Source: a virus (taxonomy: Duplodnaviria; Caudoviricetes). From it: 42,783 nt of DNA. Positions 2,368 through 42,233 of this stretch are shown piece by piece. Each line of letters starts with the position of its first letter. Positions within the stretch are counted from its first letter, which is position 1. Position numbers and translations under genes: made by a program. Where the stretch lies: positions 1-42,783 of IMG/VR virus record IMGVR_UViG_3300005077_000038. One strand, written 5' to 3'. The notes beneath the pieces were generated by a model, which had not been told where the DNA came from, searched no databases, and worked only from the letters and a program-made list of their open reading frames with translations.

Positions 2368-2520
2368 TTATTCCTCCGTGTCTCTGATGTGTTTTTTGTG
2401 CTCTGCCAGCGTTATAATTCTGTGGCAGTCCGGGCAAATCCAGCAGGTTCCCAATTCTCCCCCGCTGACCTCGACAAATTTCTGTTCAAATTTACACCAA
2501 ATTGAAACCTTTTTGCTCAC
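2368..2520 (-). CDS. 50-aa hypothetical protein with CxxC (not in ORF track)
   Basis: Hand translation: GTG start after AAGGGGA, MSKKVSIWCKFEQKFVEVSGGELGTCWICPDCHRIITLAEHKKHIRDTEE; fills the gap. Confidence 0.5.
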   Translation of the reverse strand: MSKKVSIWCKFEQKFVEVSGGELGTCWICPDCHRIITLAEHKKHIRDTEE

Positions 2521-2779
2521 GTTGTCCCCTTATCGTTTCAGAGATCGGACCTGATGCCAACCCGTGATCGTAATCGTCAATAAGCTCCTCGATGCTCTTC
2601 ACGATCATTTTATGCCGGAGATTCGCAGAAGCCGCATGGTTCATGAGATTGTCGATCTCCGCATCCATCTTGTGGCACATCTTGCAATGCGCCGGTTTTT
2701 TAAGCCCGATCCTCTCGCAGAAGTGGCACTGCAATGCCCTGATCTGTGCAATTTTTTTGGTTGTGTGAAGAGTGTCCAT
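2492..2779 (-). CDS. hypothetical protein with CxxC...CxxC
   Basis: ATG 2779 coupled (TAATG) to the upstream stop; CHFC and CKMC. Confidence 0.55.
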   Translation of the reverse strand: MDTLHTTKKIAQIRALQCHFCERIGLKKPAHCKMCHKMDAEIDNLMNHAASANLRHKMIVKSIEELIDDYDHGLASGPISETIRGQREQKGFNLV

Positions 2780-3084
2780 TATTTCAATCCAATCTTTAAT
2801 GCGACATATCCAACAAGGATGGTGATAATCGCCCGGAACGCCCAATCAACAAGGCCCTGTGACGATGTTTTTTTTGTCTGATGTTCTTCCCACATACGAT
2901 TGATCTTGTCTTTATACCCGATCTTACCATTGGTCTCCCAGGCCAAAATATGCGTGTTCATTTGATCGACGCTTTTTTGAAGGCTGGTTAACGCCTGGTT
3001 GATTAGCAGGTCTCTTAATTTCAAGTCTTTCTCCAAAAGATCATGATTAGATTTACAGTTATGTTCCTTTACGCAATCGTCCAC
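2779..3084 (-). CDS. coiled-coil protein with C-terminal TM helix (XhlA/holin-like)
   Basis: Heptad-like N-half, C-terminal WAFRAIITILVGYVALKIGLK; lies downstream of the tail fibre genes. Confidence 0.55.
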   Translation of the reverse strand: MDDCVKEHNCKSNHDLLEKDLKLRDLLINQALTSLQKSVDQMNTHILAWETNGKIGYKDKINRMWEEHQTKKTSSQGLVDWAFRAIITILVGYVALKIGLK

Positions 3085-3111
3085 ATTGCGCCCCTTTCCG
3101 TTTATAAAGTT

Positions 3112-3267
3112 TCACCCCTCATCGCCAAGATCAAACACCATGAAAACACGGCGATCCTGTCTCTTTTCCTCATCCCTGATTTGCCTAGCAAAAGTTTCAA
3201 CATCCCCCCATTTTCCTTTCTGGAGTAATCGTTTTAACGCCTTGAGTAGTTTTTCGAGTCTGTTCAT
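3112..3267 (-). CDS. 51-aa hypothetical protein (not in ORF track)
   Basis: Hand translation MNRLEKLLKALKRLLQKGKWGDVETFARQIRDEEKRQDRRVFMVFDLGDEG fills the gap on the operon strand; no clear RBS. Confidence 0.4.
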   Translation of the reverse strand: MNRLEKLLKALKRLLQKGKWGDVETFARQIRDEEKRQDRRVFMVFDLGDEG

Positions 3268-3274
3268 TTATCAT

Positions 3275-4798
3275 TTAAAAAAATCGTCTGGTTCGGCCTG
3301 CTGGCGGTGAGCCTCCGGCATATTCATCAGCGCCGATGTCCCAAGGTGCATATGTGTCTCTATAGTCCCCGTCGAGGTCGTAGTCGTATGGACTACCTAA
3401 ATCCGTCCCGGCATCAATCGCGTCCGATCCACTCGCCAAATGGAAATCAGAACTTGAAACAAAGTCGTCGCTTGTTATAGTGTTGATAGAATGTGCGCCT
3501 GTAGCTGTGGAGTCTGACGAGCCATTATAGTCGTGTGTAGCAGACGCATGAAAAGAAAAATCAGTTTCAGCATTATATACAAGATTCCCGTAACAGGTAG
3601 ATGAATCAGATGCGCAATTAATCCCACGATCTGTTCCGTTGCTATTGTCTATGTTATAAACGGTATTATGATGTGCTATATTATTGTCTGTATTAGAGCC
3701 GTCAAATCCTGTATAAATTGCGGTCGTGTTATTAGCTAAAATATTTGCTACAATGTTTCCATAAATTTTAATATTTTTTCCATTTGCATAGTCTTCGCAC
3801 ACAATTCCATTGATATGCCAAGATGCAGTGATGTTCCCTATGAGAGTATATCTAATAACTGAGTACGTACCACGCATATAAACATAATAATTTGTTGTGT
3901 ACTCAGTCATTGAACCTCCGGAGACTTCGAGGTATTCAAATACAAAATAGGACTCATTTACATTGATTAATGTTTCATTACTTAACGACGTTGAATATAC
4001 TAATCTAGCCCCATCACCAAAAGTAGCAATGCTTCTTTCACCTTCTGGAACTGTTAAAGTTCTATAATATGATGAGTTTGTTGTTGCGCCAGCAAATTCG
4101 ATCATTTCATCCAATGCGCCCTGGTCGTCGTAAACTTCAAGGGTTTCCCCGTTTGTCGCCGTTACTAAATCGTTATCGGTAGCATCTTCCCAAAGAGTAA
4201 TACTGTTATAATCTTCTCCGCTTTTATTACACGTCGAGATTGTTTCAGCTAACGCTCTACGTGTTATGACGTTCGCAATCCGGATTAAAGGACGTTGAAT
4301 GTAAGCATAAAACTTTCTTTTCGCTTCATATTTCGACAAATCTTGAAGAGTTGTCGCTCTCATTTCAATTTTTGATGCATCAATTTTGTTTTCAATAAGC
4401 CCCTTTTTTGCTTCAACGCCAAGTTTTGAAGTGTCGATCTTGTTCTTTCTATAAGAGACCGTCTGCATGATAGGAGATCCATCTTTAGCTGTACCGACCT
4501 GCTCCTTCCAGGGTTCTTTCATGGCCTTAACTTGTTCATCAGTCAAAGCGGTCTTATAAATCAACCACTCTTTTTTTTCTGTTTCGCTTGGGACGTTTTG
4601 TTCATTTACAGGAAGAACCGCAACGACATCACCAGCCTTTGACCGTCCTGCATCTTGTTCCGCAGTAACACCAGAACGATCTTCAAGCCGAACATAGACC
4701 CAGTAATCTGACGTCTTTTCGACTCCTCTGACTTCTAACTGAGCCAAAGCACTCCCACACACCGCCATCAACGCCAAGATCATAAGTGCTTTTTTCAT
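3275..4798 (-). CDS. parallel beta-helix protein with signal peptide (tail spike/adhesin-like), 507 aa
   Basis: AAGGAG RBS before ATG 4798; MKKALMILALMAVCGSALA; Asn-ladder repeats; C-terminal DFHLASGSDAIDAG...WDIGADEY cap. Confidence 0.7.
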   Translation of the reverse strand: MKKALMILALMAVCGSALAQLEVRGVEKTSDYWVYVRLEDRSGVTAEQDAGRSKAGDVVAVLPVNEQNVPSETEKKEWLIYKTALTDEQVKAMKEPWKEQVGTAKDGSPIMQTVSYRKNKIDTSKLGVEAKKGLIENKIDASKIEMRATTLQDLSKYEAKRKFYAYIQRPLIRIANVITRRALAETISTCNKSGEDYNSITLWEDATDNDLVTATNGETLEVYDDQGALDEMIEFAGATTNSSYYRTLTVPEGERSIATFGDGARLVYSTSLSNETLINVNESYFVFEYLEVSGGSMTEYTTNYYVYMRGTYSVIRYTLIGNITASWHINGIVCEDYANGKNIKIYGNIVANILANNTTAIYTGFDGSNTDNNIAHHNTVYNIDNSNGTDRGINCASDSSTCYGNLVYNAETDFSFHASATHDYNGSSDSTATGAHSINTITSDDFVSSSDFHLASGSDAIDAGTDLGSPYDYDLDGDYRDTYAPWDIGADEYAGGSPPAGRTRRFF

Positions 4799-22732: not shown

Positions 22733-23872
22733 TTACTTCCCATACCGCTCTTGCCCGCGCTTGATCTGATCAAACGACGTTTCAACAATGGCGTCACCCA
22801 CGTTGTTATGGGCGTTCTGGAGCTGTTTCAGTTTCTCTGCCGCGTTCTTTTTTTCCTCTTCCTCTTTCTTCTTGGCCTCTTCTTCTTCGTTCTTTTTGTT
22901 GGCCTCTTCCTCGTCATCTTCGTTCTTTTTGGCAGATTTCAAATACCGGTTGACGAGTTCTTTGATCGGCATTTTTTCCTCGCCGACTTCGATTTCGGTT
23001 TCCATGTTCACTTTCTGATCGTCGTCATCTTCGCCCTCGTTCTTTTTGGCGTTCTGGACTGTCTCGATCATTTCTTTCAGAGAAACCTCTTTCCCGTTCT
23101 CAAGCTGGATCATCGCGTTTTCATCAATGTCCTTCTCAACAGGAACCTTCTTGAATAACTTGAACATAATCTTCCCCTTTTTTTCGTTTTGCAGTTCTGC
23201 TGTTTTGGTTTTTTTGTATTCTTCAAATTGTTCCGGTGTCATGATCTTGGCATCTTCATAACGAGGATTTGGAACAATAGCAAGGTGAGTGTATTTCCCG
23301 TTCAGGATTTTTCTGTTGTATGGAACATTATGGCACTCTCCGCCCGATCCGGATTCCGTAGGAACGTATGCGTTTGAAACGCTCCATCCTTTGGCGATGG
23401 CTTTATGACACTCATCGGAAATTGCAATAAATTTCGCCCAGTGCCATCCGTCTAATTCCAAATAAAACGATTCGACAACATAACCGTCTGATTCCTGCTC
23501 AAGTTTTGAAACGTCAACAGAATCGACATGAAAAACCCTGACCGGAACCCCGGACATGGTTTTATCCATTTTATGGAGGGCCTCGTCATCAATAAAAATC
23601 GTTTCATTTTCATACCCGGTTATTCCCTTCTCAATATGTCGGCAATAATAAATTTTAGGCATCTGGCTGGCGTTTTGCTTTTCCATTTTTTCGAGCTTGT
23701 CGTAATAGTCGGGCATTTCAAAGAGATGGTCCATAGCTATTTTTTTAGGAGTCTCTTCGTATTCGGGGTCGGTGACGTGTTCCTTCTCAACCTCAATTCC
23801 TTTGATGAGCTGTTTTTCAATATCCTCAACGGAAACTCCATGCTTTGCGGCGATCTCTTCGATAGTTAACAT
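22733..23872 (-). CDS. prohead protease/scaffold (DUF2213-like) with N-terminal DUF5661-like domain
   Basis: YTHLAIVPNPRYEDAKI protease-type motif; charged C-terminal scaffold; N-terminal GIEVEKEH...IAMDHL.E.PDYY.KL; ATG 23872 with GGAG. Confidence 0.8.
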   Translation of the reverse strand: MLTIEEIAAKHGVSVEDIEKQLIKGIEVEKEHVTDPEYEETPKKIAMDHLFEMPDYYDKLEKMEKQNASQMPKIYYCRHIEKGITGYENETIFIDDEALHKMDKTMSGVPVRVFHVDSVDVSKLEQESDGYVVESFYLELDGWHWAKFIAISDECHKAIAKGWSVSNAYVPTESGSGGECHNVPYNRKILNGKYTHLAIVPNPRYEDAKIMTPEQFEEYKKTKTAELQNEKKGKIMFKLFKKVPVEKDIDENAMIQLENGKEVSLKEMIETVQNAKKNEGEDDDDQKVNMETEIEVGEEKMPIKELVNRYLKSAKKNEDDEEEANKKNEEEEAKKKEEEEKKNAAEKLKQLQNAHNNVGDAIVETSFDQIKRGQERYGK

Positions 23873-23886
23873 TTTTATCTCCAAAT

Positions 23887-23929
23887 AAAAAAGCCCGACC
23901 TTACGATATTTCTATCATTAAAGTCGGGC
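23887..23929 (-). terminator. intrinsic terminator-like hairpin upstream of the protease gene
   Basis: Minus strand GCCCGACTTTAATGATA-GAAA-TATCGTAAGGTCGGGC followed by TTTTTTATTT. Confidence 0.7.
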
Positions 23930-23969
23930 AGGATTCTTTATCCTTGTCCCCATATTTTAAATGTCTTTA

Positions 23970-24104
23970 CTACCTCTGCTGCGGCGGCGCGATGCTTTCA
24001 GTCTTTGTAACATTTCCGATTCCGCCACGGAAAAAATTGATTTGGATATTGCCAGTGAATCCTTCCTTTATAGCACGACTGATTATATCCACAATCCATT
24101 GCAT
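23970..24104 (-). CDS. 44-aa protein resembling YezD/DUF2292-like small proteins
   Basis: MQWIVDIISRAIKEGFTGNIQINFFRGGIGNVTKTESIAPPQQR; AAGG upstream. Confidence 0.5.
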   Translation of the reverse strand: MQWIVDIISRAIKEGFTGNIQINFFRGGIGNVTKTESIAPPQQR

Positions 24105-24111
24105 TTTACAA
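24082..24111 (-). promoter_or_regulatory. candidate sigma70 promoter facing the head genes
   Basis: TTGTAA-N18-TATAAT on the minus strand. Confidence 0.4.
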
Positions 24112-24127
24112 GCCTTTTTTTTATTTT

Positions 24128-26047
24128 TTATATAATTGGTATTGAAACACATCGGCAATTATGTATAATAATTCCATTAGAACAATACCAATTATTAATC
24201 GTTTCAAGGTTATAAACATGCCCAGAAAAATTCTCCGTACTCACTTGGATCACGCGATCGAGCTTCTTGACTCCGGGATGTCTCTTAATAAAGCTTCCCA
24301 GATTGTCGGATTTACAGCTGATAATCTTTCTAAACATCTCAGATCCATTGGCACAAATACCGATAGACGGAAAGGAAGACGACCGCATAATTTCCTTACT
24401 TTTGATCCTTATCCTATTATATCTGCTTATGTCTCTGGAGAAAGCGAGTTGTCTATTTCCAAAAGAACAGGCATTGAAAGAATTGTTATCCGCCGTCGGC
24501 TGCTCGATGCTGGTGTTAAAATAAGAAGCGGGTCTGAGGCCAACATCATTCGTTTTAAAAACTCCACAAAAGAAGAGCTTCAAAAAATAACTGAGGCTGC
24601 CAGAGCATCTCATAAAAGGAAAAATTTCCATCCGGAATATAGCAAAGAATATATTAAAACATTTCTTACTAAATGCTCTCAATCTAGATGTAAAAGAATT
24701 GGGAGAGGCGAAAAAGCAGTCCTTGAAGCGATGAAAAAATATAAACTCCCCTGCGATTCTCAGACTCCTTGCGGTATTTATAATATTGACTTGACCGTCA
24801 ACGGAACCATCGCCGTGGAAATCTTCTCGTGTGGAATGAGCGGTCAACATCGTAAAATTATGGCGGAGAGAATTAAATATCTTTCCGATCATGGGTTTAC
24901 TGTCATCTATTTCATTTCCAAAAGGATTAATCAGATCATCTTCCAACTTGATGATATAGTCTCCATCATCAAGCGAACCAATAGCCTTCCACCCTGTAAG
25001 CGTAAACACTTGATGATTAGGTGTAGCTCTGAGCGTTTTACCAGAATCCGTAATGATAGTGGTCAATTCTCCTGCATACCAACGACGGAACGCTTTTTTT
25101 ATTCCATAGGCGAAATCAATATTTGAATCTTCTGGTAAACAATTAAAATCCTCCCCTGGGTGCGCTCGCCTTCCAGTTTCCTCATCGACGATCGGCGGGT
25201 TGTCCCACGAGAAAATCCTCCCATTTAATTTCCGGTGCCGGTCCCTGACCCTTGAATCCTGTGATGAACTCCATCGGTATTTTTGAATTCCTGCACTTTT
25301 ATATCGTTCCTCACGATATTTACTGACCATCAAAGATGTTTCCTGCCTTGCCAGAAATTCAGCTTTTTTTCGGGTTACGTCGTATTCCGACATCAAAACT
25401 TTTTGGAGTTTATCAGCCCGCATACCGGAATAAACGTTTTTCTGGACTTTTTCCCGCAACCGCTCAACAGCCTTTTCAGTCCAGTCCTTAATGCTCAAGT
25501 TCATGTTTGTGTTATAAGACTCGATCAGGTTTTCTTTTATTCCTTTGGTGATCGTGGCTTTTATTCCAATCTCTCCCGGAACGGCTTTGATAAACTGATC
25601 GTCAACGTCCGCGGCGATTTTGTCCAGTTCTTTAGAGAGATCCATTTGATATGTTAGAGACTGGGTGTTTTTTTCTGTCTGGTCTAGAATATCAAACACG
25701 CCTTTCTTGACAGACTCTGCCTTGATCTCGCCCTGGGCGACCGAAGCCATAATATCCTGAGGAATCTTTCCTGGCGTGAGTTTATACCCCTTCACAACCT
25801 TGTTGTATTTACCGCCAATCTTAACAATTTCAGACGATATTTTTGCGCTGAACTTCCCGACAAAATAGCCATCAACGTATCTGACCTGGCCTTCGGACAG
25901 TGCTTCATTTAGTGCCGTTGTCTTGGCGTTCTTTATCTCAACGCTCAAGAAATCAAACAGGTCTTTGAATATCAGAGTATAAAAATAATATTCAAGACGT
26001 TCTCGGATGGCCTTTACATATTCGTCTTTGAATCGGATCGGTTTCAT
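24128..26047 (-). CDS. head morphogenesis protein (Mu gpF/SPP1 gp7 family) containing an intein; 311 aa after splicing
   Basis: LARQET, YRWSSSQDSRVRDRHRKLNGRIFSW, HPGEDFN|CRC rejoined by removing aa 303-630. Confidence 0.9.
   Translation of the reverse strand: MKPIRFKDEYVKAIRERLEYYFYTLIFKDLFDFLSVEIKNAKTTALNEALSEGQVRYVDGYFVGKFSAKISSEIVKIGGKYNKVVKGYKLTPGKIPQDIMASVAQGEIKAESVKKGVFDILDQTEKNTQSLTYQMDLSKELDKIAADVDDQFIKAVPGEIGIKATITKGIKENLIESYNTNMNLSIKDWTEKAVERLREKVQKNVYSGMRADKLQKVLMSEYDVTRKKAEFLARQETSLMVSKYREERYKSAGIQKYRWSSSQDSRVRDRHRKLNGRIFSWDNPPIVDEETGRRAHPGEDFNCLPEDSNIDFAYGIKKAFRRWYAGELTTIITDSGKTLRATPNHQVFTLTGWKAIGSLDDGDYIIKLEDDLINPFGNEIDDSKPMIGKIFNSLRHNFTMLTAHSTREDFHGDGSVDGQVNIINTARSLRIAGEFIFFHRFKDCFFASPNSFTSRLRAFSKKCFNIFFAIFRMEIFPFMRCSGSLSYFLKLFFCGVFKTNDVGLRPASYFNTSIEQPTADNNSFNACSFGNRQLAFSRDISRYNRIRIKSKEIMRSSSFPSIGICANGSEMFRKIISCKSDNLGSFIKRHPGVKKLDRVIQVSTENFSGHVYNLETINNWYCSNGIIIHNCRCVSIPII
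24142..24169 (+). promoter_or_regulatory. candidate sigma70 promoter for the antisense endonuclease
   Basis: TTGAAA(24142-47)-N16-TATAAT(24164-69), about 50 nt before ATG 24218. Confidence 0.55.
24158..25141 (-). mobile_element. intein in gpF (328 aa)
   Basis: C1 CLPEDS; block B LRATPNHQVFT; block F FSGHVYNLET; block G IIHN followed by extein Cys. Confidence 0.93.
24218..25126 (+). CDS. HTH + Vsr/DUF559-like putative homing endonuclease, antisense within the gpF intein
   Basis: HTH-like segments (LDSGMSLNKASQIVG; AYVSGESELSISKRTGIERIVIRRRL) and GEKAV...Q..CGIYNIDL....IAVEI...YLSDHGFTVIY; AAGGT RBS at 24206. Confidence 0.78.
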   Translation: MPRKILRTHLDHAIELLDSGMSLNKASQIVGFTADNLSKHLRSIGTNTDRRKGRRPHNFLTFDPYPIISAYVSGESELSISKRTGIERIVIRRRLLDAGVKIRSGSEANIIRFKNSTKEELQKITEAARASHKRKNFHPEYSKEYIKTFLTKCSQSRCKRIGRGEKAVLEAMKKYKLPCDSQTPCGIYNIDLTVNGTIAVEIFSCGMSGQHRKIMAERIKYLSDHGFTVIYFISKRINQIIFQLDDIVSIIKRTNSLPPCKRKHLMIRCSSERFTRIRNDSGQFSCIPTTERFFYSIGEINI

Positions 26048-27432
26048 TCTGTCGGTTTTGTTGTTTGAAAATCAGCGGGAGGCTGAGGAGGGACAGCCTC
26101 CCGGGTTCCGGCCATTACCTCTGTTTCGATGTCGAGCAAATCGTGTTTCTTTAACAGATCTGAATATTCTTTGTCCGTAAACAGTCCTTGAGAATACATA
26201 ACGGAAAATCTGTCAAACTTCTTATTCTTAACCTCTTCCTCGTCAGTTTCGGACAGGACCCTCAACGGTTTGAAATCAACAGTAATATCATCCGGGGAAA
26301 TTCCGAACAGGTGCTGACAAATAATCTGAACGGTTTTAACAATGATCGGTTCAGCCTTTGAGCGCACCTCACCATCAATCATTGAGTTATAATTCTCGAT
26401 ATCGTCCTCACCTGAGTTGAACCCAGAAGCTGATATTCCAAACAATTTTGTCATCGGAAACTTGAAATCGCTGGCAACGCCCATCCTGATCTGGGTCAGC
26501 ATTTCTCCCAGACCAGAGAACGCCATCTGTTTCTGGACATAATCGTCAGTTGTATCCATAACCAGAGCGCTCAACATATTCTTGAGCTGGTTTGAGAGCT
26601 GGACGCGGTTCTGGACGCTTGTGGTTCCGGCTGCGGTCCCCATGCTTGAGTTAAATCCTTCGATCTTGTAAACGTCAATTTTCGCCTCATCCAGCAATTC
26701 AAAAATAACCTCATGGTTTTTGAGATACGCATTAAACGACCGGATCAAACGTTCAACCTCACTCATCCCCCACCCGCGTAGAAGAGGACGGATAAACGAT
26801 GGTGCCTCTTTGCCTTTGAGCAATAACACGCGCGATGAGTGGACGCGGTGGTTGTAATAATTAAATTCGCTATCGCCATCATCCGGGTAGGGAGTAACGT
26901 CCTGATACGCTCCGGCTGTATTCTGTTTGTTGTAAAACAGCTCCCACATATCAACGGCGCGCAAGCTGAACGGTTCGTCTTGCTTGAGACCGTTGAACGG
27001 TTTCTCGCTATCCTGTCCGGTCAGTATCATAACCCCTGCACCGCCATAGAGACGATTCCATTTAAACGCCTGACAGATGATCTGAACAATGTTTTTTGAT
27101 CGGATGTATTCGTGAAGCGTTTCTATTTCTTCTTCGTTGATCTGATCGGAGTTAATTGTAATCCCCCCGCGAAAACCATCATCAACCGGCTGGTCAATCA
27201 GTGTCTGGATCAGGCCATGCTCAACGTAGAGATGAGATAGGAGCTGGCGCATATTTGAGATCATATACCACCGGTTATTTTTAAACAGCGTGTCTGTTTG
27301 GCTCATCTGGGAACCGCCGAAGAAATCATATCCGAGATCGGTGACAAGGGATGAAAGGGAGTTGTTGATTTGTGGCTGTGGCGCGGACGGGGTGTCCGCA
27401 GTGAGTGACTTTTTATGTTTTTTCTTAGACAC
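26044..27432 (-). CDS. portal protein (DUF1073-like)
   Basis: WNRLYGGAG, GWGMSE, PMTKLFGISASGFNSGEDDIENY; between TerL and gpF. Confidence 0.9.
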   Translation of the reverse strand: MSKKKHKKSLTADTPSAPQPQINNSLSSLVTDLGYDFFGGSQMSQTDTLFKNNRWYMISNMRQLLSHLYVEHGLIQTLIDQPVDDGFRGGITINSDQINEEEIETLHEYIRSKNIVQIICQAFKWNRLYGGAGVMILTGQDSEKPFNGLKQDEPFSLRAVDMWELFYNKQNTAGAYQDVTPYPDDGDSEFNYYNHRVHSSRVLLLKGKEAPSFIRPLLRGWGMSEVERLIRSFNAYLKNHEVIFELLDEAKIDVYKIEGFNSSMGTAAGTTSVQNRVQLSNQLKNMLSALVMDTTDDYVQKQMAFSGLGEMLTQIRMGVASDFKFPMTKLFGISASGFNSGEDDIENYNSMIDGEVRSKAEPIIVKTVQIICQHLFGISPDDITVDFKPLRVLSETDEEEVKNKKFDRFSVMYSQGLFTDKEYSDLLKKHDLLDIETEVMAGTREAVPPQPPADFQTTKPTE

Positions 27433-27501: not shown

Positions 27502-29955
27502 TTATAAATTATCGAGGATTGATATTTTTCTCTTTGCGATGCCTTTTTCAATCCCATAAATAATGTTGTCAACAATGTCATCATGCTTATGGCTTAAATC
27601 ACGCGAAAACTCCTCGCTTTCTTTTATCAGTTTTTTATTGAAAGAATATGTTTCGTCAACAGGTAGAAAAACACATCCAGACTGAATATAAGTCAGGACG
27701 TCCTCAAGCCTTGTCAGCTTGTCTTTTTCGACTTCCATTCCAATTACTGGAACGAATCCATCTTTTTTAATCTTTTGAATCAGACCTGTCCCGCTTGCCT
27801 TGTCTTCAATAAAAACAGACGAAACCGCGCGTCCTTTAATTCCCAGATGCCATTTATTCCAGAACTTTTTAAATTCTTTTTCAAGTTCAGGAGCCTCCCA
27901 TTTATCTCGTATTAAATCAATTAAATATAATTTTCCAACAAAAACACCCCAAAGACAGAACACGCTAAAATCATTATGTTCTTTCGTCTTCATTGCTGTA
28001 TCGCCTGTCATAAACAATTTTTCAAATACAACATCATTCAAAAAACTTATCGGGTAATATTGATACCATTCTGATTTTATAATATTTCCACCGAGTTTAA
28101 TTGGGTTTTGTTGGTATTGAGAATTAAAGACATATTGGTCTTCCATGATTTCTTTCAACCGTTGCTCTGTGTATTGAGACGGAAGGGTGCATTTTCCTTC
28201 TTTGTCTATCAGGGGGCGTGTGATAACTTTAAAATCATAAATTTCTTTTAATATTCCAGACAAATCTTCAAGATGAAGACGCTGTTGAATGTTAATTATC
28301 GGGATGTTTGAATCATTTACCCGGGACAGCAACGTTTCCTGATAATAAATCCTAACTCTGTCTCTCATGCGCTCTGATCGGACATCAGACGGCTTGTTTG
28401 CGTCGTCGCAATTATGTACTAATATAGGCTGACTTTGTTGTATAAATAGGTTACAATTATCCCTAACAGATAAACAATAGGAGGTTTTATTATGGATTTT
28501 ATTAATGAAGAGTGGAAAGATATCGTTGGATATGAAGGGCTTTACCAGGTTTCTAATCTTGGAAGGGCCAGAAGCCTTGACAGAATTATTACCGACAGCA
28601 GAACAAAAGTTAAATACAGGCTTGTTGGAAAAATTCTCAAGCAAACAGTAAACCCCACTAAACACAACATGGAGTCTTTTGTTGGCCCACAACAAAAAGG
28701 TGTTGAGGTTCGGCACATTGACGGAAATTCTTTGAATAACAATTTTTCTAATCTTTGTTATGGCACCAAAGCCGAAAACATGAAAGACTCTATTAAAATC
28801 AAAACTTTTTCTATGGGAGAGACACATCCTTGTGCAAAGGTTTCCGAAAAAGACGCTATCAATATCGCTAAAGACAGGAGAACAATTAGCGCGATCAGCA
28901 AAGAATATGGAATTACTCCTGCTGCTGTTCTTAGCATTAAACAAGGAAAAAACTGGAAGCAATCTATTAAATATATTTATTATAAGCCTAGAACAAAGAA
29001 GAGTTTTTCCGACGAAGAGTTTAAAGAGATTTGTGACCCATCCATAAAAAGAAAATATATAATGGAAAAATATAACCTCACTTTGCCGAGGCTCAAACGA
29101 ATGAGGAAGCTGAAAAAAAACGTCATTTGGAGTTAAATTTTGAGCCTCTACATATCCCCTGCTTTTTGTATAAAACTTGTGTTCTGGCGTGCATTCTATA
29201 ACGTCTCCATTCGACAATGTTAACTCTACCATCTCTGAGTTTTCGTTTTTAATGTATCGATCTATTGGTTTTAATTCTATAGTGTGTTTTTTGTGGTTAA
29301 ACGAATAAATTAAAACATCCATTTTTTTTTCTACAATGTCACCAATCCTAACAAAACCAATGTTTGTTTTAACTAGCGTTTCGTAACCAAAACAAAAAAT
29401 ACACCCGGAGAATTCTTTTGATCCGCGAATCCCGGCCCCGAACCCTGTTATAGCAGACCCAATACTTGAAAACAAAATAACCCCGCCCTCTGATGTGATG
29501 ATCTTTCTTGCAGAGAACTTATCTTTCCCTGTTGTTTCAAACAAATATTCTTTCCAAAAATCGTTTATTGGATCTTCATAGGATTCTTGTCGCGAGTAAG
29601 AATTTTTATACATCGTAGTATAAATTGGGTGCGACAATATTGATTCAAGGATCTTTGAAATCTGGGACAGAAGATCTTGAGAATATGAAGTGTAAATAAA
29701 ATTGCATCGTTTATTCTTAGCCAAATGAAACGCCATAAAATAAATGGCCAGCGTTGTTTTTGAACTTCGTGGAGGTAGATTTAAAATGAGTCGCAGAATT
29801 TCAATGTTGGTAACCTTATCAAACGCATCAAACAGCCCTTTATGCAATTCTTCTTCAATGAACGGTCGGTTCTCAACGGCCTTGAACATATATTTAAACC
29901 AAACCCGAAACCCTCGCTCTATTAGTCTTTGTCCAAGATATTCAGGGTCAATCAT
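27502..29955 (-). CDS. terL: terminase large subunit containing an intein; 489 aa after splicing
   Basis: Walker A LPPRSSKT; Walker B GCIF|CDDANKP split by the intein; IQQRLHLEDL; nuclease DTA, IEDKASG, HDDIVD. Confidence 0.95.
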   Translation of the reverse strand: MIDPEYLGQRLIERGFRVWFKYMFKAVENRPFIEEELHKGLFDAFDKVTNIEILRLILNLPPRSSKTTLAIYFMAFHLAKNKRCNFIYTSYSQDLLSQISKILESILSHPIYTTMYKNSYSRQESYEDPINDFWKEYLFETTGKDKFSARKIITSEGGVILFSSIGSAITGFGAGIRGSKEFSGCIFCFGYETLVKTNIGFVRIGDIVEKKMDVLIYSFNHKKHTIELKPIDRYIKNENSEMVELTLSNGDVIECTPEHKFYTKSRGYVEAQNLTPNDVFFQLPHSFEPRQSEVIFFHYIFSFYGWVTNLFKLFVGKTLLCSRLIINIFNRLLPVFSLFNAKNSSRSNSIFFADRANCSPVFSDIDSVFFGNLCTRMCLSHRKSFDFNRVFHVFGFGAITKIRKIVIQRISVNVPNLNTFLLWANKRLHVVFSGVYCLLENFSNKPVFNFCSAVGNNSVKASGPSKIRNLVKPFISNDIFPLFINKIHNKTSYCLSVRDNCNLFIQQSQPILVHNCDDANKPSDVRSERMRDRVRIYYQETLLSRVNDSNIPIINIQQRLHLEDLSGILKEIYDFKVITRPLIDKEGKCTLPSQYTEQRLKEIMEDQYVFNSQYQQNPIKLGGNIIKSEWYQYYPISFLNDVVFEKLFMTGDTAMKTKEHNDFSVFCLWGVFVGKLYLIDLIRDKWEAPELEKEFKKFWNKWHLGIKGRAVSSVFIEDKASGTGLIQKIKKDGFVPVIGMEVEKDKLTRLEDVLTYIQSGCVFLPVDETYSFNKKLIKESEEFSRDLSHKHDDIVDNIIYGIEKGIAKRKISILDNL
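28429..28457 (+). promoter_or_regulatory. candidate promoter for the antisense HNH gene
   Basis: CTGACT-N17-TACAAT, upstream of the AGGAGGT RBS at 28479-28485. Confidence 0.35.
28492..29136 (+). CDS. NUMOD4-HNH homing endonuclease, antisense within the TerL intein
   Basis: NUMOD4 EEWKDIVGYEGLYQVSNLGRARS; HNH VRHIDGNSLNNNFSNLCYGTKAEN; GETHPCAKV + HTH; strong RBS AGGAGGT. Confidence 0.9.
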   Translation: MDFINEEWKDIVGYEGLYQVSNLGRARSLDRIITDSRTKVKYRLVGKILKQTVNPTKHNMESFVGPQQKGVEVRHIDGNSLNNNFSNLCYGTKAENMKDSIKIKTFSMGETHPCAKVSEKDAINIAKDRRTISAISKEYGITPAAVLSIKQGKNWKQSIKYIYYKPRTKKSFSDEEFKEICDPSIKRKYIMEKYNLTLPRLKRMRKLKKNVIWS

Positions 29956-38574: not shown

Positions 38575-38833
38575 TGTTTACACGACAAAAACGAACCTCC
38601 ACGTTTCAGATTCATGTTTCGCAATCCTCATCAAAGACGGAATTGAAATTTACATCGAATTCGAAGATGAAAAAGACGTCTGGATGCGCGGAGTAAAGAG
38701 CGTATGCCCTAAGTGTGATCGACATGTATATGATGGAACGATCGAAGAGGGCTGGGAATTTTGTCCGGATTGCGAAGTCGCTCCGGTTTATAAAAAGGAA
38801 ATCAACGAGGAATATTTAAAATGGAAATCATAA
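38507..38833 (+). CDS. hypothetical protein with C-terminal zinc ribbon
   Basis: GAAAGGA RBS; CPKC...CPDC. Confidence 0.6.
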   Translation: MKEKIFHLIKKMESDGWDLIVVDVYTTKTNLHVSDSCFAILIKDGIEIYIEFEDEKDVWMRGVKSVCPKCDRHVYDGTIEEGWEFCPDCEVAPVYKKEINEEYLKWKS

Positions 38834-39705
38834 CCCCAGAAAACAAACAGAAATGGCTTGAATTAAGAACGCAGGACATCACGTCAACAGAAGTATCCGC
38901 TCTATTCGGATTGAACCCATACATGACGAAATTTGAGTTGTGGCATAGAAAAAAACGCGGGGACGTGGTTGAACTTGCTGAAAACAAACGCATGTTTTGG
39001 GGAACAAAACTCCAGGACGTTATCGCCGAGGCCATCGCCGAAAAAAATGGATGGGAAATCCGAAGGATGGATGAGTATATCCGAGATCCGGATCTGAGGG
39101 CTGGGAGTAGTTTTGATTTTTCCATCGGCGATGATGGGATCCTCGAAATCAAAAACGTTGACGGACTTGTTTATAGGGATAAATGGGAAGAAAATTCCGC
39201 GCCTCTCCATATTGAAATGCAAGTCCAGCATCAAATGATGGTGTCCGGACGTGAATATGCCTATATTGGGATGCTCGTGGGTGGGAATGATGAAGTCCTC
39301 ATTAAAAGAAAAAGGGATGAGGTTGTTATCTCTGAGATTCGCAAGGCTATCAAAGAGTTTTGGAAATCCATTAATGAAAACAAACCGCCGGATCCTGACT
39401 TTAAGGCAGACGCAAAATTTATCGCAGAACTGTATGGATACGCCGAACCAAAAAAACTGTTTGACGCCAGAGGGGATGAGAAAATAACCGGAATGGCTGA
39501 AAGATACAAAGAACTCGGAGACTCAATCAAAGAGTTACAGACAGAGCGAGACGCCATCAAGTCGGAACTGTTAACAATCATAGAGGACGCTGAAAAGGTG
39601 ACCGGAGACAGGTTTACGATTTCAGCAGGGATCGTTGAGGAAACGCCGGTTAGCTATGTCCGCAGCGCGTTTCGTAATTTCAGAATAAACTGGAGGAAAA
39701 AATGA
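38821..39705 (+). CDS. YqaJ-like (lambda exonuclease family) recombination nuclease
   Basis: WLELR..DITSTEVSALFGLNPY, SFDF, ILEIKN, QVQHQM. Confidence 0.9.
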   Translation: MEIITPENKQKWLELRTQDITSTEVSALFGLNPYMTKFELWHRKKRGDVVELAENKRMFWGTKLQDVIAEAIAEKNGWEIRRMDEYIRDPDLRAGSSFDFSIGDDGILEIKNVDGLVYRDKWEENSAPLHIEMQVQHQMMVSGREYAYIGMLVGGNDEVLIKRKRDEVVISEIRKAIKEFWKSINENKPPDPDFKADAKFIAELYGYAEPKKLFDARGDEKITGMAERYKELGDSIKELQTERDAIKSELLTIIEDAEKVTGDRFTISAGIVEETPVSYVRSAFRNFRINWRKK

Positions 39706-39968
39706 CACAAAAAACACATGATCTGGCAGTAAAAACAGGGTCGTATACCGACAATAACGGCAACACGAAAAATAGGTATAAAAACTGCGGGATGGTTTTG
39801 AAGAAGGACGATGGCGGAGAAATCATCCTGATCGACCCGACATTCAATTTTGCCGGGGTCAAACTCGACAGCGACAGGGATATGGTTATCATATCGAAAT
39901 TTGAGGTCAAAAAGCGAGAACAAGCCGCCACAAGCCAGACACCGGATGCGGTGGATTGGGAGGAATAA
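39702..39968 (+). CDS. hypothetical protein, possible ssDNA-binding protein
   Basis: GSYTDNNGNTKNRYKNCG motif, acidic tail; lies in the recombination cluster. Confidence 0.5.
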   Translation: MTQKTHDLAVKTGSYTDNNGNTKNRYKNCGMVLKKDDGGEIILIDPTFNFAGVKLDSDRDMVIISKFEVKKREQAATSQTPDAVDWEE

Positions 39969-41188
39969 TGAAAATCATACATCTTAAAGCAGAAAACATT
40001 AAACGTTTGATCGCCGTTGACATTTCCCCGGACAAAAACGTGGTAAAAATCACAGGAAAAAATGGACACGGAAAAACGTCTGTTCTGGATTCGATTTGGT
40101 GGTGTCTTGGAGGAGCTCAGAACATTCAGTCACGCCCTGTCAATGACAGCGCGGATGAAGGGTTTGTTGAAATCGACCTTGGCGATATGGTTGTTACAAG
40201 GAAATTCAAAAAGCAGGACGGCGGGAAATATACGTCGTCACTGAAAATCGAAAGCAAAGACGGGGCAGTTTTCAAGTCACCTCAATCTCTAATTGATAAA
40301 CTTCTCGGGGACCTCACATTTGACCCGATGGCGTTTCAGCGTCTTGACCCGAAGAAACAGTTTGAAATCCTGAAATCGTTCGTCCCGGACGTTGATTTTG
40401 AAAAAATCGAGGACGAAAATAAAAAGGATTACGACGAAAGAACCGATCTTAACCGCCAGTATAAGGAAAAGAAATCGGCGGCGGATCAGATTGATGTTGA
40501 TATTCAAAGCGCGCCGACCGACATCATTGATACATCAAAAATGATGAAACAAATTGAAGTCGCGTCTGAACATAACTCAAAGGTTTCGTCATGCCGAAGC
40601 GACCGCGCGCAGAAAATCAAAAGGATGGAGCAGTTAAAATCAGAACTTAAACAGCTTGAAGAGGAAATAAAGGCCCAGATTGATGATCCAGTCGACATTC
40701 AGGATTTGTCGAAAAAAGTCGAAGAGGCGCAGAAACACAACGAAATCGTGAGAAATAAGCATGAGAAAGTCAAATTGATCGAAACAGCATCCCTGCTGAA
40801 ACAGCAGGCTGATGAGCTAACAAAGAGAATCGAGAAACGCAACGAGGACAAAAAGAGATCCATTGAAAATGCGAAACTTCCGGTCAATGGCATAGGGTTC
40901 GGTGATGGAGAAGTGCTACTGAACGGCTTGCCGTTATGCCAGGCATCAGATGCTGAACAGCTGAGAGCATCGCTTTCGATCGCAATGGCCCTTAACCCAG
41001 AACTCCGCGTTATCCGCGTTCGAGACGGATCCCTGCTTGACGATGATTCAATGAAAATCGTTGAAGAAATGGCAGAAAAGAATGATTTTCAGATATGGAT
41101 TGAGATCGTTGACGGGTCCGGCAAAGTCGGGTTTGTGTTAGAAGAGGGATCACTTAAAGGTTCTCCTGAAGGAATAAACGAATTTTAA
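39968..41188 (+). CDS. SMC/RecF-like AAA ATPase with coiled coil
   Basis: ITGKNGHGKTSVLD Walker A; long coiled coil; ASDAEQ signature-like motif; IRVRDGSLLD. Confidence 0.85.
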   Translation: MKIIHLKAENIKRLIAVDISPDKNVVKITGKNGHGKTSVLDSIWWCLGGAQNIQSRPVNDSADEGFVEIDLGDMVVTRKFKKQDGGKYTSSLKIESKDGAVFKSPQSLIDKLLGDLTFDPMAFQRLDPKKQFEILKSFVPDVDFEKIEDENKKDYDERTDLNRQYKEKKSAADQIDVDIQSAPTDIIDTSKMMKQIEVASEHNSKVSSCRSDRAQKIKRMEQLKSELKQLEEEIKAQIDDPVDIQDLSKKVEEAQKHNEIVRNKHEKVKLIETASLLKQQADELTKRIEKRNEDKKRSIENAKLPVNGIGFGDGEVLLNGLPLCQASDAEQLRASLSIAMALNPELRVIRVRDGSLLDDDSMKIVEEMAEKNDFQIWIEIVDGSGKVGFVLEEGSLKGSPEGINEF

Positions 41189-41210
41189 TTAATAATGAAA
41201 GGATTAACAA

Positions 41211-42233
41211 ATGACACATATCGAAGAATTTAAACAAAACCTCATCGCCATGCGAGACAAACTTGAACCTTTACTTAAGAAAGACACTGACAAGTTTATC
41301 CAGATCGCGGCAAATTATGTCGAACAAAATCAGGGATTGCTTGAAAAAAACAGGGCGTCTCTATACAACTCAATCATCAGATCTGCCCAGCAAGGATTAT
41401 ATCTTGACGGACACGAAGCCGCCCTGGTCCCGTTTAACGGAGAGGTCAAGTTTATGTCTATGTATAAGGGCCTATTAAAACAAGTCAGAAATAGTGGAGA
41501 ATTGGCAAGCATAAACTGCGGGGTGGTTTATGAAAACGATACGTTTGAGTTTTTTGTTGACGAGATCGGTGAACATATCAAGCACGTTCCGAACTACAAA
41601 GAAAAGCGAGGAAAGCATTCGGCAACATACGCCATCGCAAGAACAAAAGACAGCAACGCCCCGTACATCGAAATCATGCGTGAGGAAGAAATTCAGGATT
41701 GTAAAAAGGCCAGTCGAGCCAGAAGCAATAGCCCATGGGACGGCCCGTTCTCAGATGAAATGCGAAAGAAAACAGTTTTACGAAGAATTTCAAAACGTCT
41801 CCCTATGTCAACCGATCTTAATGCTGCATTACATGCCGATGATGACCTTTTTATCCCCGAAGATGACCCGAAGGATGATCCGAAGCCAGAAACGTCTGGC
41901 AAGCTGAGGGACGCTGTATCAAATAAACAAAATGAACCTGAACCAGCTAAGAAACCCTTGGCCGTGCAGGGCGTAATCGAAGAATTGAAAATTATCCCGG
42001 TAACCGTAGACGGAAATCCATCAAGCCGTTTCGCATGCCGGATTGGAAATGTTTGGTTCGGGACGTTTGATCAGAATTTTTATGAACAGATGGGATCGTA
42101 TGCTGACAAAAAATCATCAATCTGGATGGTGTTTGAAAAAAGAACAAACAAATCCGGGAAGGAATACAATGAGGCGCTTGAGATAAACGAAATTGAATCG
42201 ACGACAGTTGACGAAACAGAGGTTCCGATATGA
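41211..42233 (+). CDS. recT: RecT-family ssDNA annealing protein
   Basis: AQQGL, AALVPF, YKGLLKQVRNSG, SPW....EMRKKTVLRRISKRLPMS. Confidence 0.9.
   Translation: MTHIEEFKQNLIAMRDKLEPLLKKDTDKFIQIAANYVEQNQGLLEKNRASLYNSIIRSAQQGLYLDGHEAALVPFNGEVKFMSMYKGLLKQVRNSGELASINCGVVYENDTFEFFVDEIGEHIKHVPNYKEKRGKHSATYAIARTKDSNAPYIEIMREEEIQDCKKASRARSNSPWDGPFSDEMRKKTVLRRISKRLPMSTDLNAALHADDDLFIPEDDPKDDPKPETSGKLRDAVSNKQNEPEPAKKPLAVQGVIEELKIIPVTVDGNPSSRFACRIGNVWFGTFDQNFYEQMGSYADKKSSIWMVFEKRTNKSGKEYNEALEINEIESTTVDETEVPI

What the first reader, a model, noticed from the sequence alone, without database searches (positions are those of the whole stretch)
24158..25141. gpF intein almost wholly overlapped by an antisense HTH + Vsr/DUF559-like nuclease gene
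The intein sits in the conserved HPGEDFN|CRC motif, nine residues from the C-terminus. The antisense ORF (open 24161-25126, likely start 24218) runs through block B and stops only at intein residue 6. Catalytic splicing residues and the nuclease C-terminus are therefore encoded by the same base pairs (TPNHQVFTLTGW opposite PPCKRKHLMIRC). This is a deeper dual coding than in the TerL intein. The active-site region VEIFSCGMSGQH departs from the usual ExDGxxxH, so activity is uncertain.
Basis: partly seen in the sequence, partly recalled or inferred. Interest (0 to 1): 0.85.

Follow-up and report, generated by a model that had tools for sequence, protein, structure and literature searches.

The report
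Intein overprinted by antisense homing nuclease
A predicted self-splicing insert (intein) in a phage head-assembly gene carries, codon for codon on its opposite DNA strand, a conserved gene predicted to encode a DNA-cutting enzyme that likely spreads the insert; a 2025 preprint described this kind of element, but its main text does not describe how deeply the two genes overlap.

Summary
Observation confirmed. A 328-aa class 1 intein (24158-25141, -) sits in a MuF/gpF head gene at PGEDFN|CRC. An in-register antisense gene (24218-25126) covers intein residues 308 to 7 and encodes a predicted HTH-HTH + Vsr/EDxHD-like fold (Vsr Z 12.2). It is a large family: 80 of 80 loci fetched by the splicing domain alone carry it. 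Both strands are under selection: 100 of 102 relatives have no antisense stop across block B, against 3 of 28 control inteins. The start codon, Shine-Dalgarno and a sigma70-type promoter lie in the block F/G codons. The nuclease catalytic strand I-A-V-E201 lies opposite an intein-frame motif, FHGD, that is itself selected. The active site keeps E165/Q182/D191/E201 but lacks the EDxHD His and last Asp throughout this clade, so cutting is inferred, not shown. Empty alleles dominate the closest gpF relatives, as homing predicts. Antisense VSR-like nucleases in full inteins were reported by Gosselin et al. 2025 (bioRxiv), and this scan met the element many times on other DNA. New member of a known kind; the depth of overlap, the FHGD/IAVE lock, the His-less clade and an escaped free-standing copy were not found in print.

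The parts
24128..26047 (-). MuF/gpF (SPP1 gp7-like) head morphogenesis gene, 639-aa precursor, 311 aa after splicing
   Evidence: Pfam PF04233 E 2e-17; downstream of portal and TerL on the same strand
24158..25141 (-). class 1 intein, 328 aa: Cys1, T40-x-x-H43, His327-Asn328, Cys+1
   Evidence: PF14890; AF2 model matches Hint folds at Z 11-12, about 108 residues aligned
24128..24157 (-). C-extein CRCVSIPII*; supplies the Cys+1 nucleophile and, on the + strand, the -35 box
25013..25024 (-). block B TPNH, opposite nuclease C269-R268-I267-M266; codons ACA-CCT-AAT-CAT
   Evidence: antisense Cys in 20 of 20 and Arg in 19 of 20 clade members, beyond what the intein residue requires
24806..24820 (-). 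FHGDG (intein 108-112): intein-frame motif under its own selection, opposite nuclease T197-I198-A199-V200-E201
   Evidence: pLDDT 85-95 for intein 81-120
24200..24220 (-). block F HVYNLET; its His codon CAT is the nuclease ATG and its Asn-Leu codons give the antisense SD
24218..25126 (+). antisense nuclease gene, 302 aa (P0001); the frame is also open from ATG 24161
24236..24346 (+). HTH 1 (residues 7-43; absent from several close relatives)
24410..24688 (+). HTH 2 (YxxGESELS motif, 65-97) and long basic helices (105-157)
24695..24985 (+). Vsr/EDxHD-like core (160-256) with E165, Q182, D191, E201, R218; no conserved His
25010..25114 (+). C-terminal Arg-rich beta-hairpin (265-299), opposite intein residues 44-10
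24142..24169 (+). sigma70-type promoter-like site TTGAAA-16-TATAAT (11 of 12); -35 in the C-extein, -10 in block G
   Evidence: synonymous-codon null P 0.04 for this copy; family enrichment
24206..24210 (+). SD-like AAGGT, 7 nt before the ATG (GGAGG at this place in many relatives)

Best explanation
This is an intein in the phage gpF/MuF gene whose opposite strand holds a separate, conserved, in-register gene for a predicted HTH + Vsr-like nuclease that likely acts as its homing endonuclease. Shown: the two open frames, their conservation, selection on both strands, and promoter-, SD- and start-like signals written into blocks F and G. Inferred: (1) the head operon makes a 639-aa precursor that splices by the class 1 route (Cys1, Thr40/His43, His327-Asn328, Cys+1) to give 311-aa gpF; (2) host RNA polymerase transcribes the nuclease from the antisense sigma70-type promoter, independently of the head operon and probably earlier; (3) the HTHs, basic helices and Arg-rich hairpin bind the intein-free PGEDFN|CRC site of a co-infecting phage, and the E165/Q182/D191/E201 centre nicks or cuts it by a His-independent variant of Vsr chemistry; (4) recombination repair, possibly by the phage's own YqaJ/RecT system, copies the intein with its nested gene. 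The gene starts and stops inside the intein, so the whole unit travels together.
For: Fold: Vsr 1cw0 Z 12.2, rmsd 2.4, 113 aligned, model 160-301; I-Bth0305I 3r3p Z 10.1; profile match to 3hrl E 1.4e-7 and 3r3p E 0.0088. Linkage: 43 of 44 loci found by the nuclease have a full in-register antisense host frame; 80 of 80 loci found by the Hint N-domain have the antisense nuclease. Selection: stop-free across block B in 100 of 102 family representatives against 3 of 28 control inteins, and 2 of 18 GC-matched controls. The frame ends at intein residues 2-30 in 101 of 103. Antisense residues are conserved beyond the intein's needs at 18 of 44 columns over intein 7-50 in the window's clade, at 0 of 5 beyond the stop and 0 of 6 extein columns. 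Expression signals: His CAT 67 of 75 (extein 0.38), Leu CTC/CTT 74 of 81 (extein 0.36; controls 6 of 28); perfect antisense TATAAT in 39 of 84 against a null mean of 9.0, maximum 17; controls 1 of 70. Catalytic residues: E165, Q182, D191, E201 in 22 of 22 and R218 in 21 of 22 clade members. Homing pattern: among 80 gpF relatives, 44 distinct alleles are empty (one with CYC), including the five closest (57-62% identity); 3 carry this family's intein (49-51%), 1 another intein, 10 were not parsed. Splicing domains 59-63% identical to the window's sit in exteins from 19% to 51% identical.
Against: The His general base and last Asp of the EDxHD motif are not kept: S208 and M215 align to I-Bth0305I H213 and D222, positions that Taylor et al. 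mutated to make inactivated constructs (PMC3239194, passages). Pfam DUF559 for this protein is only E 0.035 and Foldseek gave no E <= 0.001 match. The window's SD is weaker than the family's GGAGG. Promoter-like sites in the region are no more numerous than chance (5 against 4.5), and the window's -35 lies in the extein, unlike those of its closest relatives. No near-identical intein in a divergent extein was found, so homing is shown only as old spread. The codon tests do not correct for shared ancestry beyond an 80% identity filter. Averaged over the whole family the tail opposite intein 7-30 is only weakly constrained (0.18 bit). No expression or cleavage data.
Confidence: 0.68

Rival explanations
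1. The gene is real and expressed, but in this His-less clade the protein no longer cuts. It is kept as a site-specific DNA-binding protein, for example regulating the convergent head operon or itself, and the intein is now inherited vertically.
For: No His or last Asp in the clade and a hypervariable loop after E201; strong selection on the HTHs and basic helices (about 0.9-1.0 bit over intein 161-240); no very recent transfer seen.
Against: The acidic triad, Q182 and R218 are invariant or nearly so in 22 divergent members. The clade occupies very different MuF subfamilies at the same site, which needs mobility after the His was lost. A second group of 29 rows also lacks GxxWH.
Confidence: 0.15
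2. The nuclease is active, but its main benefit is interference: it damages intein-free competitor phages, and copying of the intein is secondary.
For: A separate sigma70-type promoter would allow early expression. An identical free-standing copy persists beside an intein-less MuF gene in three Acinetobacter phages.
Against: The gene stays confined inside the intein ends in 102 of 103 cases, which is what a co-converted homing unit needs; the two uses are not exclusive.
Confidence: 0.12
3. Only the core is a gene. The stretch over blocks A/B is neutral read-through, or the whole ORF is a shadow of the in-register antisense frame.
For: The in-register antisense frame is the one most often open by chance; P 0.074 for the 64 codons in this window alone; stop positions vary from residue 2 to 30 across the family.
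Against: 1 stop in 4120 codons over intein 31-70, and that one in a decayed mini-intein; controls 45 in 1120; codon bias at the block B Thr, Pro and Asn; the free-standing copy keeps a tail of the same length and pattern although its Hint frame is full of stops. It remains possible for the last 10-25 residues in distant clades.
Confidence: 0.04

Closest known systems
Full inteins with an anti-sense VSR-like homing endonuclease in actinobacteriophages (Gosselin, Arsenault, Gogarten, bioRxiv 10.1101/2025.01.02.630785; abstract, sections 6 and 15 and passages read; figures and supplements not seen)
   Same: Contiguous intein, antisense Vsr-like ORF matching 1CW0 and 3R3P, long helical N-terminal part; minor capsid (IPR006528) is among the hosts and all their minor capsid inteins are non-canonical. 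P0001 matches MuF genes of Gordonia phages Fosterous, Affeca, Vivi2, Sedona, Keitabear and Malisha, probably the same family (inferred; their table was not seen).
   Different: [quoted passage not shown] Here the ORF crosses block B, also in Fosterous, Keitabear and Malisha (stops at intein residues 16, 9, 12). Its main text has no mention of promoter, start codon, ribosome binding, block B or block F. The family extends far beyond actinophages.
EDxHD homing endonucleases, I-Bth0305I (Taylor et al. 2011, PMC3239194; passages read)
   Same: N-terminal HTH-type DNA-binding repeats plus C-terminal Vsr-like core; helix Glu, Asp and the extra Glu align (E165, D191, E201).
   Different: His213 and Asp222 equivalents absent; extra C-terminal hairpin; encoded antisense in an intein, not in a group I intron.
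Vsr-like endonucleases of fractured genes with split inteins (Dassa et al. 2009, PMC2677866; passages read)
   Same: Vsr-like nuclease with its own expression signals between intein halves; overlaps of 6-69 bp with the downstream part.
   Different: There the intein is split and the nuclease is a free-standing ORF between the halves; here the intein is contiguous and 906 of its 984 bases are coding on both strands.
ShiLan hidden HNH insertion in phage methylases (Arsenault et al. 2025, PMC11855218; passages read)
   Same: Homing nuclease hidden in another reading frame of a translated insertion.
   Different: HNH, alternate frame, no Hint domain.

Membership tests
Class 1 intein | Cys/Ser at 1, block B TxxH, terminal His-Asn, Cys/Ser/Thr at +1 | tested here: met
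   C1, T40-P-N-H43, H327-N328, C+1; C1, T40, H43, N328 invariant in 69 aligned inteins
Class 1 intein | Hint fold | tested here: met
   AF2 pLDDT above 90 at both ends; Z 11.9 to hedgehog Hint, 11.8 to NpuDnaB intein
Class 1 intein | in-frame insertion absent from homologs | tested here: met
   44 distinct empty alleles among 80 loci; phi1422 gp47 empty
Class 1 intein | splices from the precursor | not testable with these tools
   inferred from motifs
Inteins with anti-sense VSR-like HEN (Gosselin 2025) | contiguous intein with no in-frame nuclease domain | tested here: met
   frame has no stop; Pfam shows only MuF and intein; intein 174-263 mostly pLDDT below 50
Inteins with anti-sense VSR-like HEN (Gosselin 2025) | antisense ORF with Vsr-like fold | tested here: met
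Inteins with anti-sense VSR-like HEN (Gosselin 2025) | same sequence family as the preprint's VSR clusters | tested here: inconclusive
   tblastn hits at 25-29% identity under MuF genes of Gordonia phages; the supplementary table naming the members was not seen
EDxHD homing endonucleases (I-Bth0305I) | Vsr-like core with N-terminal HTH/NUMOD DNA-binding repeats | tested here: met
EDxHD homing endonucleases (I-Bth0305I) | first Glu and metal-binding Asp | tested here: met
   E165 and D191 in 22 of 22 clade members; 40 and 41 of 41 in A2
EDxHD homing endonucleases (I-Bth0305I) | general-base His (H213) | tested here: not met
   aligns to S208; His in 24 of 41 family members but not conserved in the window's clade; H211 lies three residues later and is not conserved
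EDxHD homing endonucleases (I-Bth0305I) | last Asp (D222) | tested here: not met
   aligns to M215; Phe or His in most of the family
EDxHD homing endonucleases (I-Bth0305I) | cleaves the empty allele near the insertion site | not testable with these tools
   needs an assay

The most novel reading that the evidence does not exclude
The intein and its antisense nuclease have become one interlocked genetic unit. Blocks F and G double as promoter, RBS and start codon, block B doubles as a selected nuclease strand, and a structural FHGD segment of the intein doubles as the nuclease's catalytic strand, so the nuclease can hardly be deleted without damaging splicing. That would block the usual decay to mini-inteins (1 of 80 loci). 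About half of the family would also cut by an undescribed His-independent Vsr-type chemistry, and the nuclease can still escape as a free-standing gene (Acinetobacter phages).
Probability: 0.35. Interest if true: 0.72.

Novelty: new member of a known kind. Interest (0 to 1): 0.48.

Why it matters
It is a natural, widespread case of two folded enzymes written codon against codon, with functional residues of both on shared bases and the signals of one hidden in the splicing motifs of the other. It corrects the published view that such nuclease ORFs mostly avoid the splicing domain and are rare: 1,359 protein clusters match at E <= 1e-30, and the gene is unannotated in 10 of the 11 GenBank phage regions examined. 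Cultured carriers in laboratory hosts (Escherichia phage Snoke, Gordonia phages) make homing, antisense expression and the constraints on overlapping genes directly testable.

Tried and rejected
Single-sequence scans with P0001 found no relative in viral or metagenome contigs; an alignment was needed. Foldseek gave no match at E <= 0.001; 3r3p ranked second at E 0.013. A homodimer prediction for residues 140-302 gave no verdict (score 0.00); it is no evidence either way. No sequencing run was listed for 23500-26100; no evidence on expression. A search for nuclease-free inteins that keep FHGDG with nuclease-incompatible codons found 0 Hint domains in 60 matches; inconclusive, so the mini-intein L071 is the only such example. 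The FHGDG motif resembles the end of a LAGLIDADG motif (recalled resemblance); no LAGLIDADG domain was found in frame and the idea was not tested further. ATG 24161 was rejected as the start: it lies upstream of the -10 box at 24164 and relatives start at the 24218 equivalent. The careful tree did not finish; only the quick tree was used. Two control loci (L155, L250) were dropped for weak antisense hits and do not look like family members. The TerL antisense HNH was not found in 4 related records, 2 of them under 50% complete. Literature searches; only the Gosselin preprint describes antisense Vsr-like nucleases in full inteins, and FHGD with intein gave 0 papers. The library lacks most subscription papers.

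Full report
Setting. The window is a 42.8-kb phage record with terminase, portal, MuF, capsid and baseplate genes on the minus strand and a YqaJ/SMC-like/RecT module on the plus strand. The MuF gene (24128-26047) holds a 328-aa intein at 24158-25141 between HPGEDFN and CRCVSIPII*, with Cys1, T40-P-N-H43, His327-Asn328 and Cys+1. Its AlphaFold model is confident at both ends and matches Hint domains at Z 11-12.

The antisense gene. The plus-strand frame 24146-25126 is open and exactly in register with the intein. From ATG 24218 it encodes 302 aa; nuclease residue n lies opposite intein residue 309-n, and the stop lies opposite Ser6. The model (pLDDT 82.7, 11-row alignment) shows two HTHs, long basic helices, an alpha/beta core and a terminal beta-hairpin. 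Foldseek found nothing at E <= 0.001, with I-Bth0305I at E 0.013. The wider aligner gave Vsr Z 12.2 (rmsd 2.4, 113 aligned, model 160-301), 3hrl Z 10.2 and I-Bth0305I Z 10.1. A 41-row profile matched 3hrl (E 1.4e-7) and 3r3p (E 0.0088), and 30 of 41 members match Pfam MTES_1575.

Family. Eleven proteins including the query were found directly. A profile matches 1,359 clusters at E <= 1e-30 (no context is known for these). Of 44 viral loci found through the nuclease, 43 have a full in-register open frame on the other strand. The 80 best of 467 confirmed loci found through the N-terminal splicing domain alone, from a partial scan and including duplicates, all carry the antisense nuclease; one of them, L071, is a 166-aa mini-intein with a decayed copy. 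Homologs occur in 60 and 120 GenBank phage records with two queries. In 10 of 11 regions fetched the gene is unannotated under a head or hypothetical CDS on the other strand.

Selection on both strands. After reducing 126 inteins to 103 at under 80% identity, intein residues 31-70 hold 1 antisense stop in 4,120 codons (in L071) against 370 in 19,878 extein codons. The frame ends at residues 2-30 in 101 of 103, at residue 6 in 31. Control inteins came from 133 pattern-matched loci: 112 had a terminal motif, 2 were dropped, 44 had blocks A and B located, and 28 remained after clustering. They have 45 stops in 1,120 codons around block B, and 3 of 28 are stop-free against 100 of 102. Block B codons are biased towards those that give conserved nuclease residues: Asn AAT 86 of 101 (extein 0.39), Thr ACA/ACC 93 of 102 (0.51), Pro CCT/CCG 70 of 86 (0.62); the block B His shows no bias. 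A per-column test on 68 inteins shows the intein frame dominant at 1-70 and 309-328 and the nuclease frame dominant at 131-290; family-wide the tail opposite 7-30 is weak (0.18 bit). In 20 ungapped members of the window's clade, 9 of 24 columns at 7-30 and 9 of 20 at 31-50 are significant, among them C269, R268, R273, R276, R278, G282, R292, against 0 of 5 beyond the stop and 0 of 6 extein columns. These tests do not model shared ancestry.

A second dual-coded site. Intein residues 108-112 (FHGDG, 24806-24820) are conserved beyond what the nuclease requires (1.4-1.9 bits at H109-G112) and lie opposite I198-A199-V200-E201, the strand that carries a putative catalytic Glu. The codons are nearly fixed (TTC 64, CAC 61, GGC 63 of 69) because only these satisfy both frames. 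The segment 81-120 has pLDDT 85-95, though covariation imposed by the other strand could inflate that. It survives in mini-intein L071, which has lost the nuclease start and the Glu codon, and is not kept opposite the free-standing nuclease. I infer that it is a structural part of this intein, whose blocks A and B are only 40 residues apart; one mini-intein is thin support, and a targeted search found no other.

Expression signals. The block F His codon is the start (ATG 67, GTG 8 of 87) and an SD-like word precedes it in 76 of 87. A perfect antisense TATAAT occurs in the block F-G region of 39 of 84 members (null mean 9.0, maximum 17 in 200 draws) and in 1 of 70 controls. L001, L002, L004, L013, L025, L026, L029 and L043 have TTGAC, the -10 box, the SD and the start wholly inside the intein. 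The window instead has TTGAAA-16-TATAAT at 24142-24169, with the -35 in the C-extein (null P 0.04) and a weaker SD, AAGGT. The number of promoter-like sites in the region is at chance level (5 against 4.5).

Active site. Against I-Bth0305I the protein keeps the helix Glu (E165), the metal-binding Asp (D191) and the extra Glu (E201), and it has Q182, the probable counterpart of Vsr Gln42 (Dassa et al.; inference). It has Ser at the His213 position and Met at the Asp222 position. In the quick tree the window falls in a 22-row clade (SH-aLRT 99) where E165, Q182, D191 and E201 are invariant, R218 is in 21 of 22, and the loop after E201 is hypervariable with no conserved His. It works like an EDxHD nuclease in architecture but fails two defining residues, so I do not file it as an EDxHD member.

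Mobility. Among 80 loci for the closest gpF exteins, 44 distinct alleles are empty, including the five closest (57-62%); three carry this intein family (49-51%), one another intein, and ten were not parsed. Similar splicing domains sit in exteins from 19% to 51% identical to the window's. This fits past homing; no recent jump was caught. In Acinetobacter phage IME285 a homolog is a free-standing annotated gene, tail to tail with an intein-less MuF. It keeps the hairpin-like tail while the Hint frame has many stops, is identical in three phages and nests among intein-borne copies on a long branch of the quick tree; an escape from the intein is likely but untested.

What is known. Gosselin et al. 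[quoted passage not shown] In three Gordonia phages checked here the ORF crosses block B. The word 'overlap' occurs once in that text; I did not see that passage singled out. Taylor 2011, Dassa 2009 and Arsenault 2025 were read as passages (97, 118; 13). Earlier notes of this scan describe the same element on other genomes, including the SD, start and promoter overlaps; I read them after my own tests of these points. FHGDG and the free-standing copy were met in no indexed note, and FHGD with intein in no paper.

Verdict. It is a new member of a reported kind, with unreported depth of dual coding and an unusual active site. Active homing nuclease 0.68; non-cutting DNA-binding descendant 0.15; interference as the main role 0.12; neutral read-through 0.04. 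Interest 0.48.

Noticed in passing
L051:455-1348 (Acinetobacter phage IME285, MH853786.1; identical in BUCT629 and P1068): Free-standing homolog of the antisense nuclease, overlapping by 7 nt the end of an intein-less MuF gene (empty CKC site) on the other strand; Hint frame decayed; nests among intein-borne copies in the quick tree. Likely a nuclease that escaped its intein.
   Followed up: partly
window 28411-29394 (-) and 28492-29136 (+): Second 328-aa intein in TerL with an in-register antisense NUMOD4-HNH gene over intein residues 87-301, preceded by AGGAGG and an AT-rich -10-like stretch.
   Followed up: partly
L071:1801-2298: 166-aa mini-intein of this family: nuclease start lost, antisense stops at intein residues 53 and 126, catalytic Glu codon changed, FHGDG kept.
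   Followed up: partly
L278 near 1757: A different intein (starting CYHKDTEV) occupies the same gpF site in a close extein relative.
   Followed up: no
L136:386-1342 (Bdellovibrio phage phi1422 gp47): The only phage in the GenBank collection matching the whole N-extein (33%, two records); intein-free, and the first 8 bases after the site equal the window's.
   Followed up: partly
window 38821-42233 (+): YqaJ exonuclease, SMC-like ATPase and RecT genes: a phage recombination module that could repair homing breaks.
   Followed up: no
L024 (about 2400-3300): The one nuclease locus of 44 without a full antisense host frame (38% overlap); broken intein frame or another free-standing copy.
   Followed up: no
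L044:2465-3421: Family member with Lys in place of the conserved Glu201 and an 85-residue longer intein.
   Followed up: no
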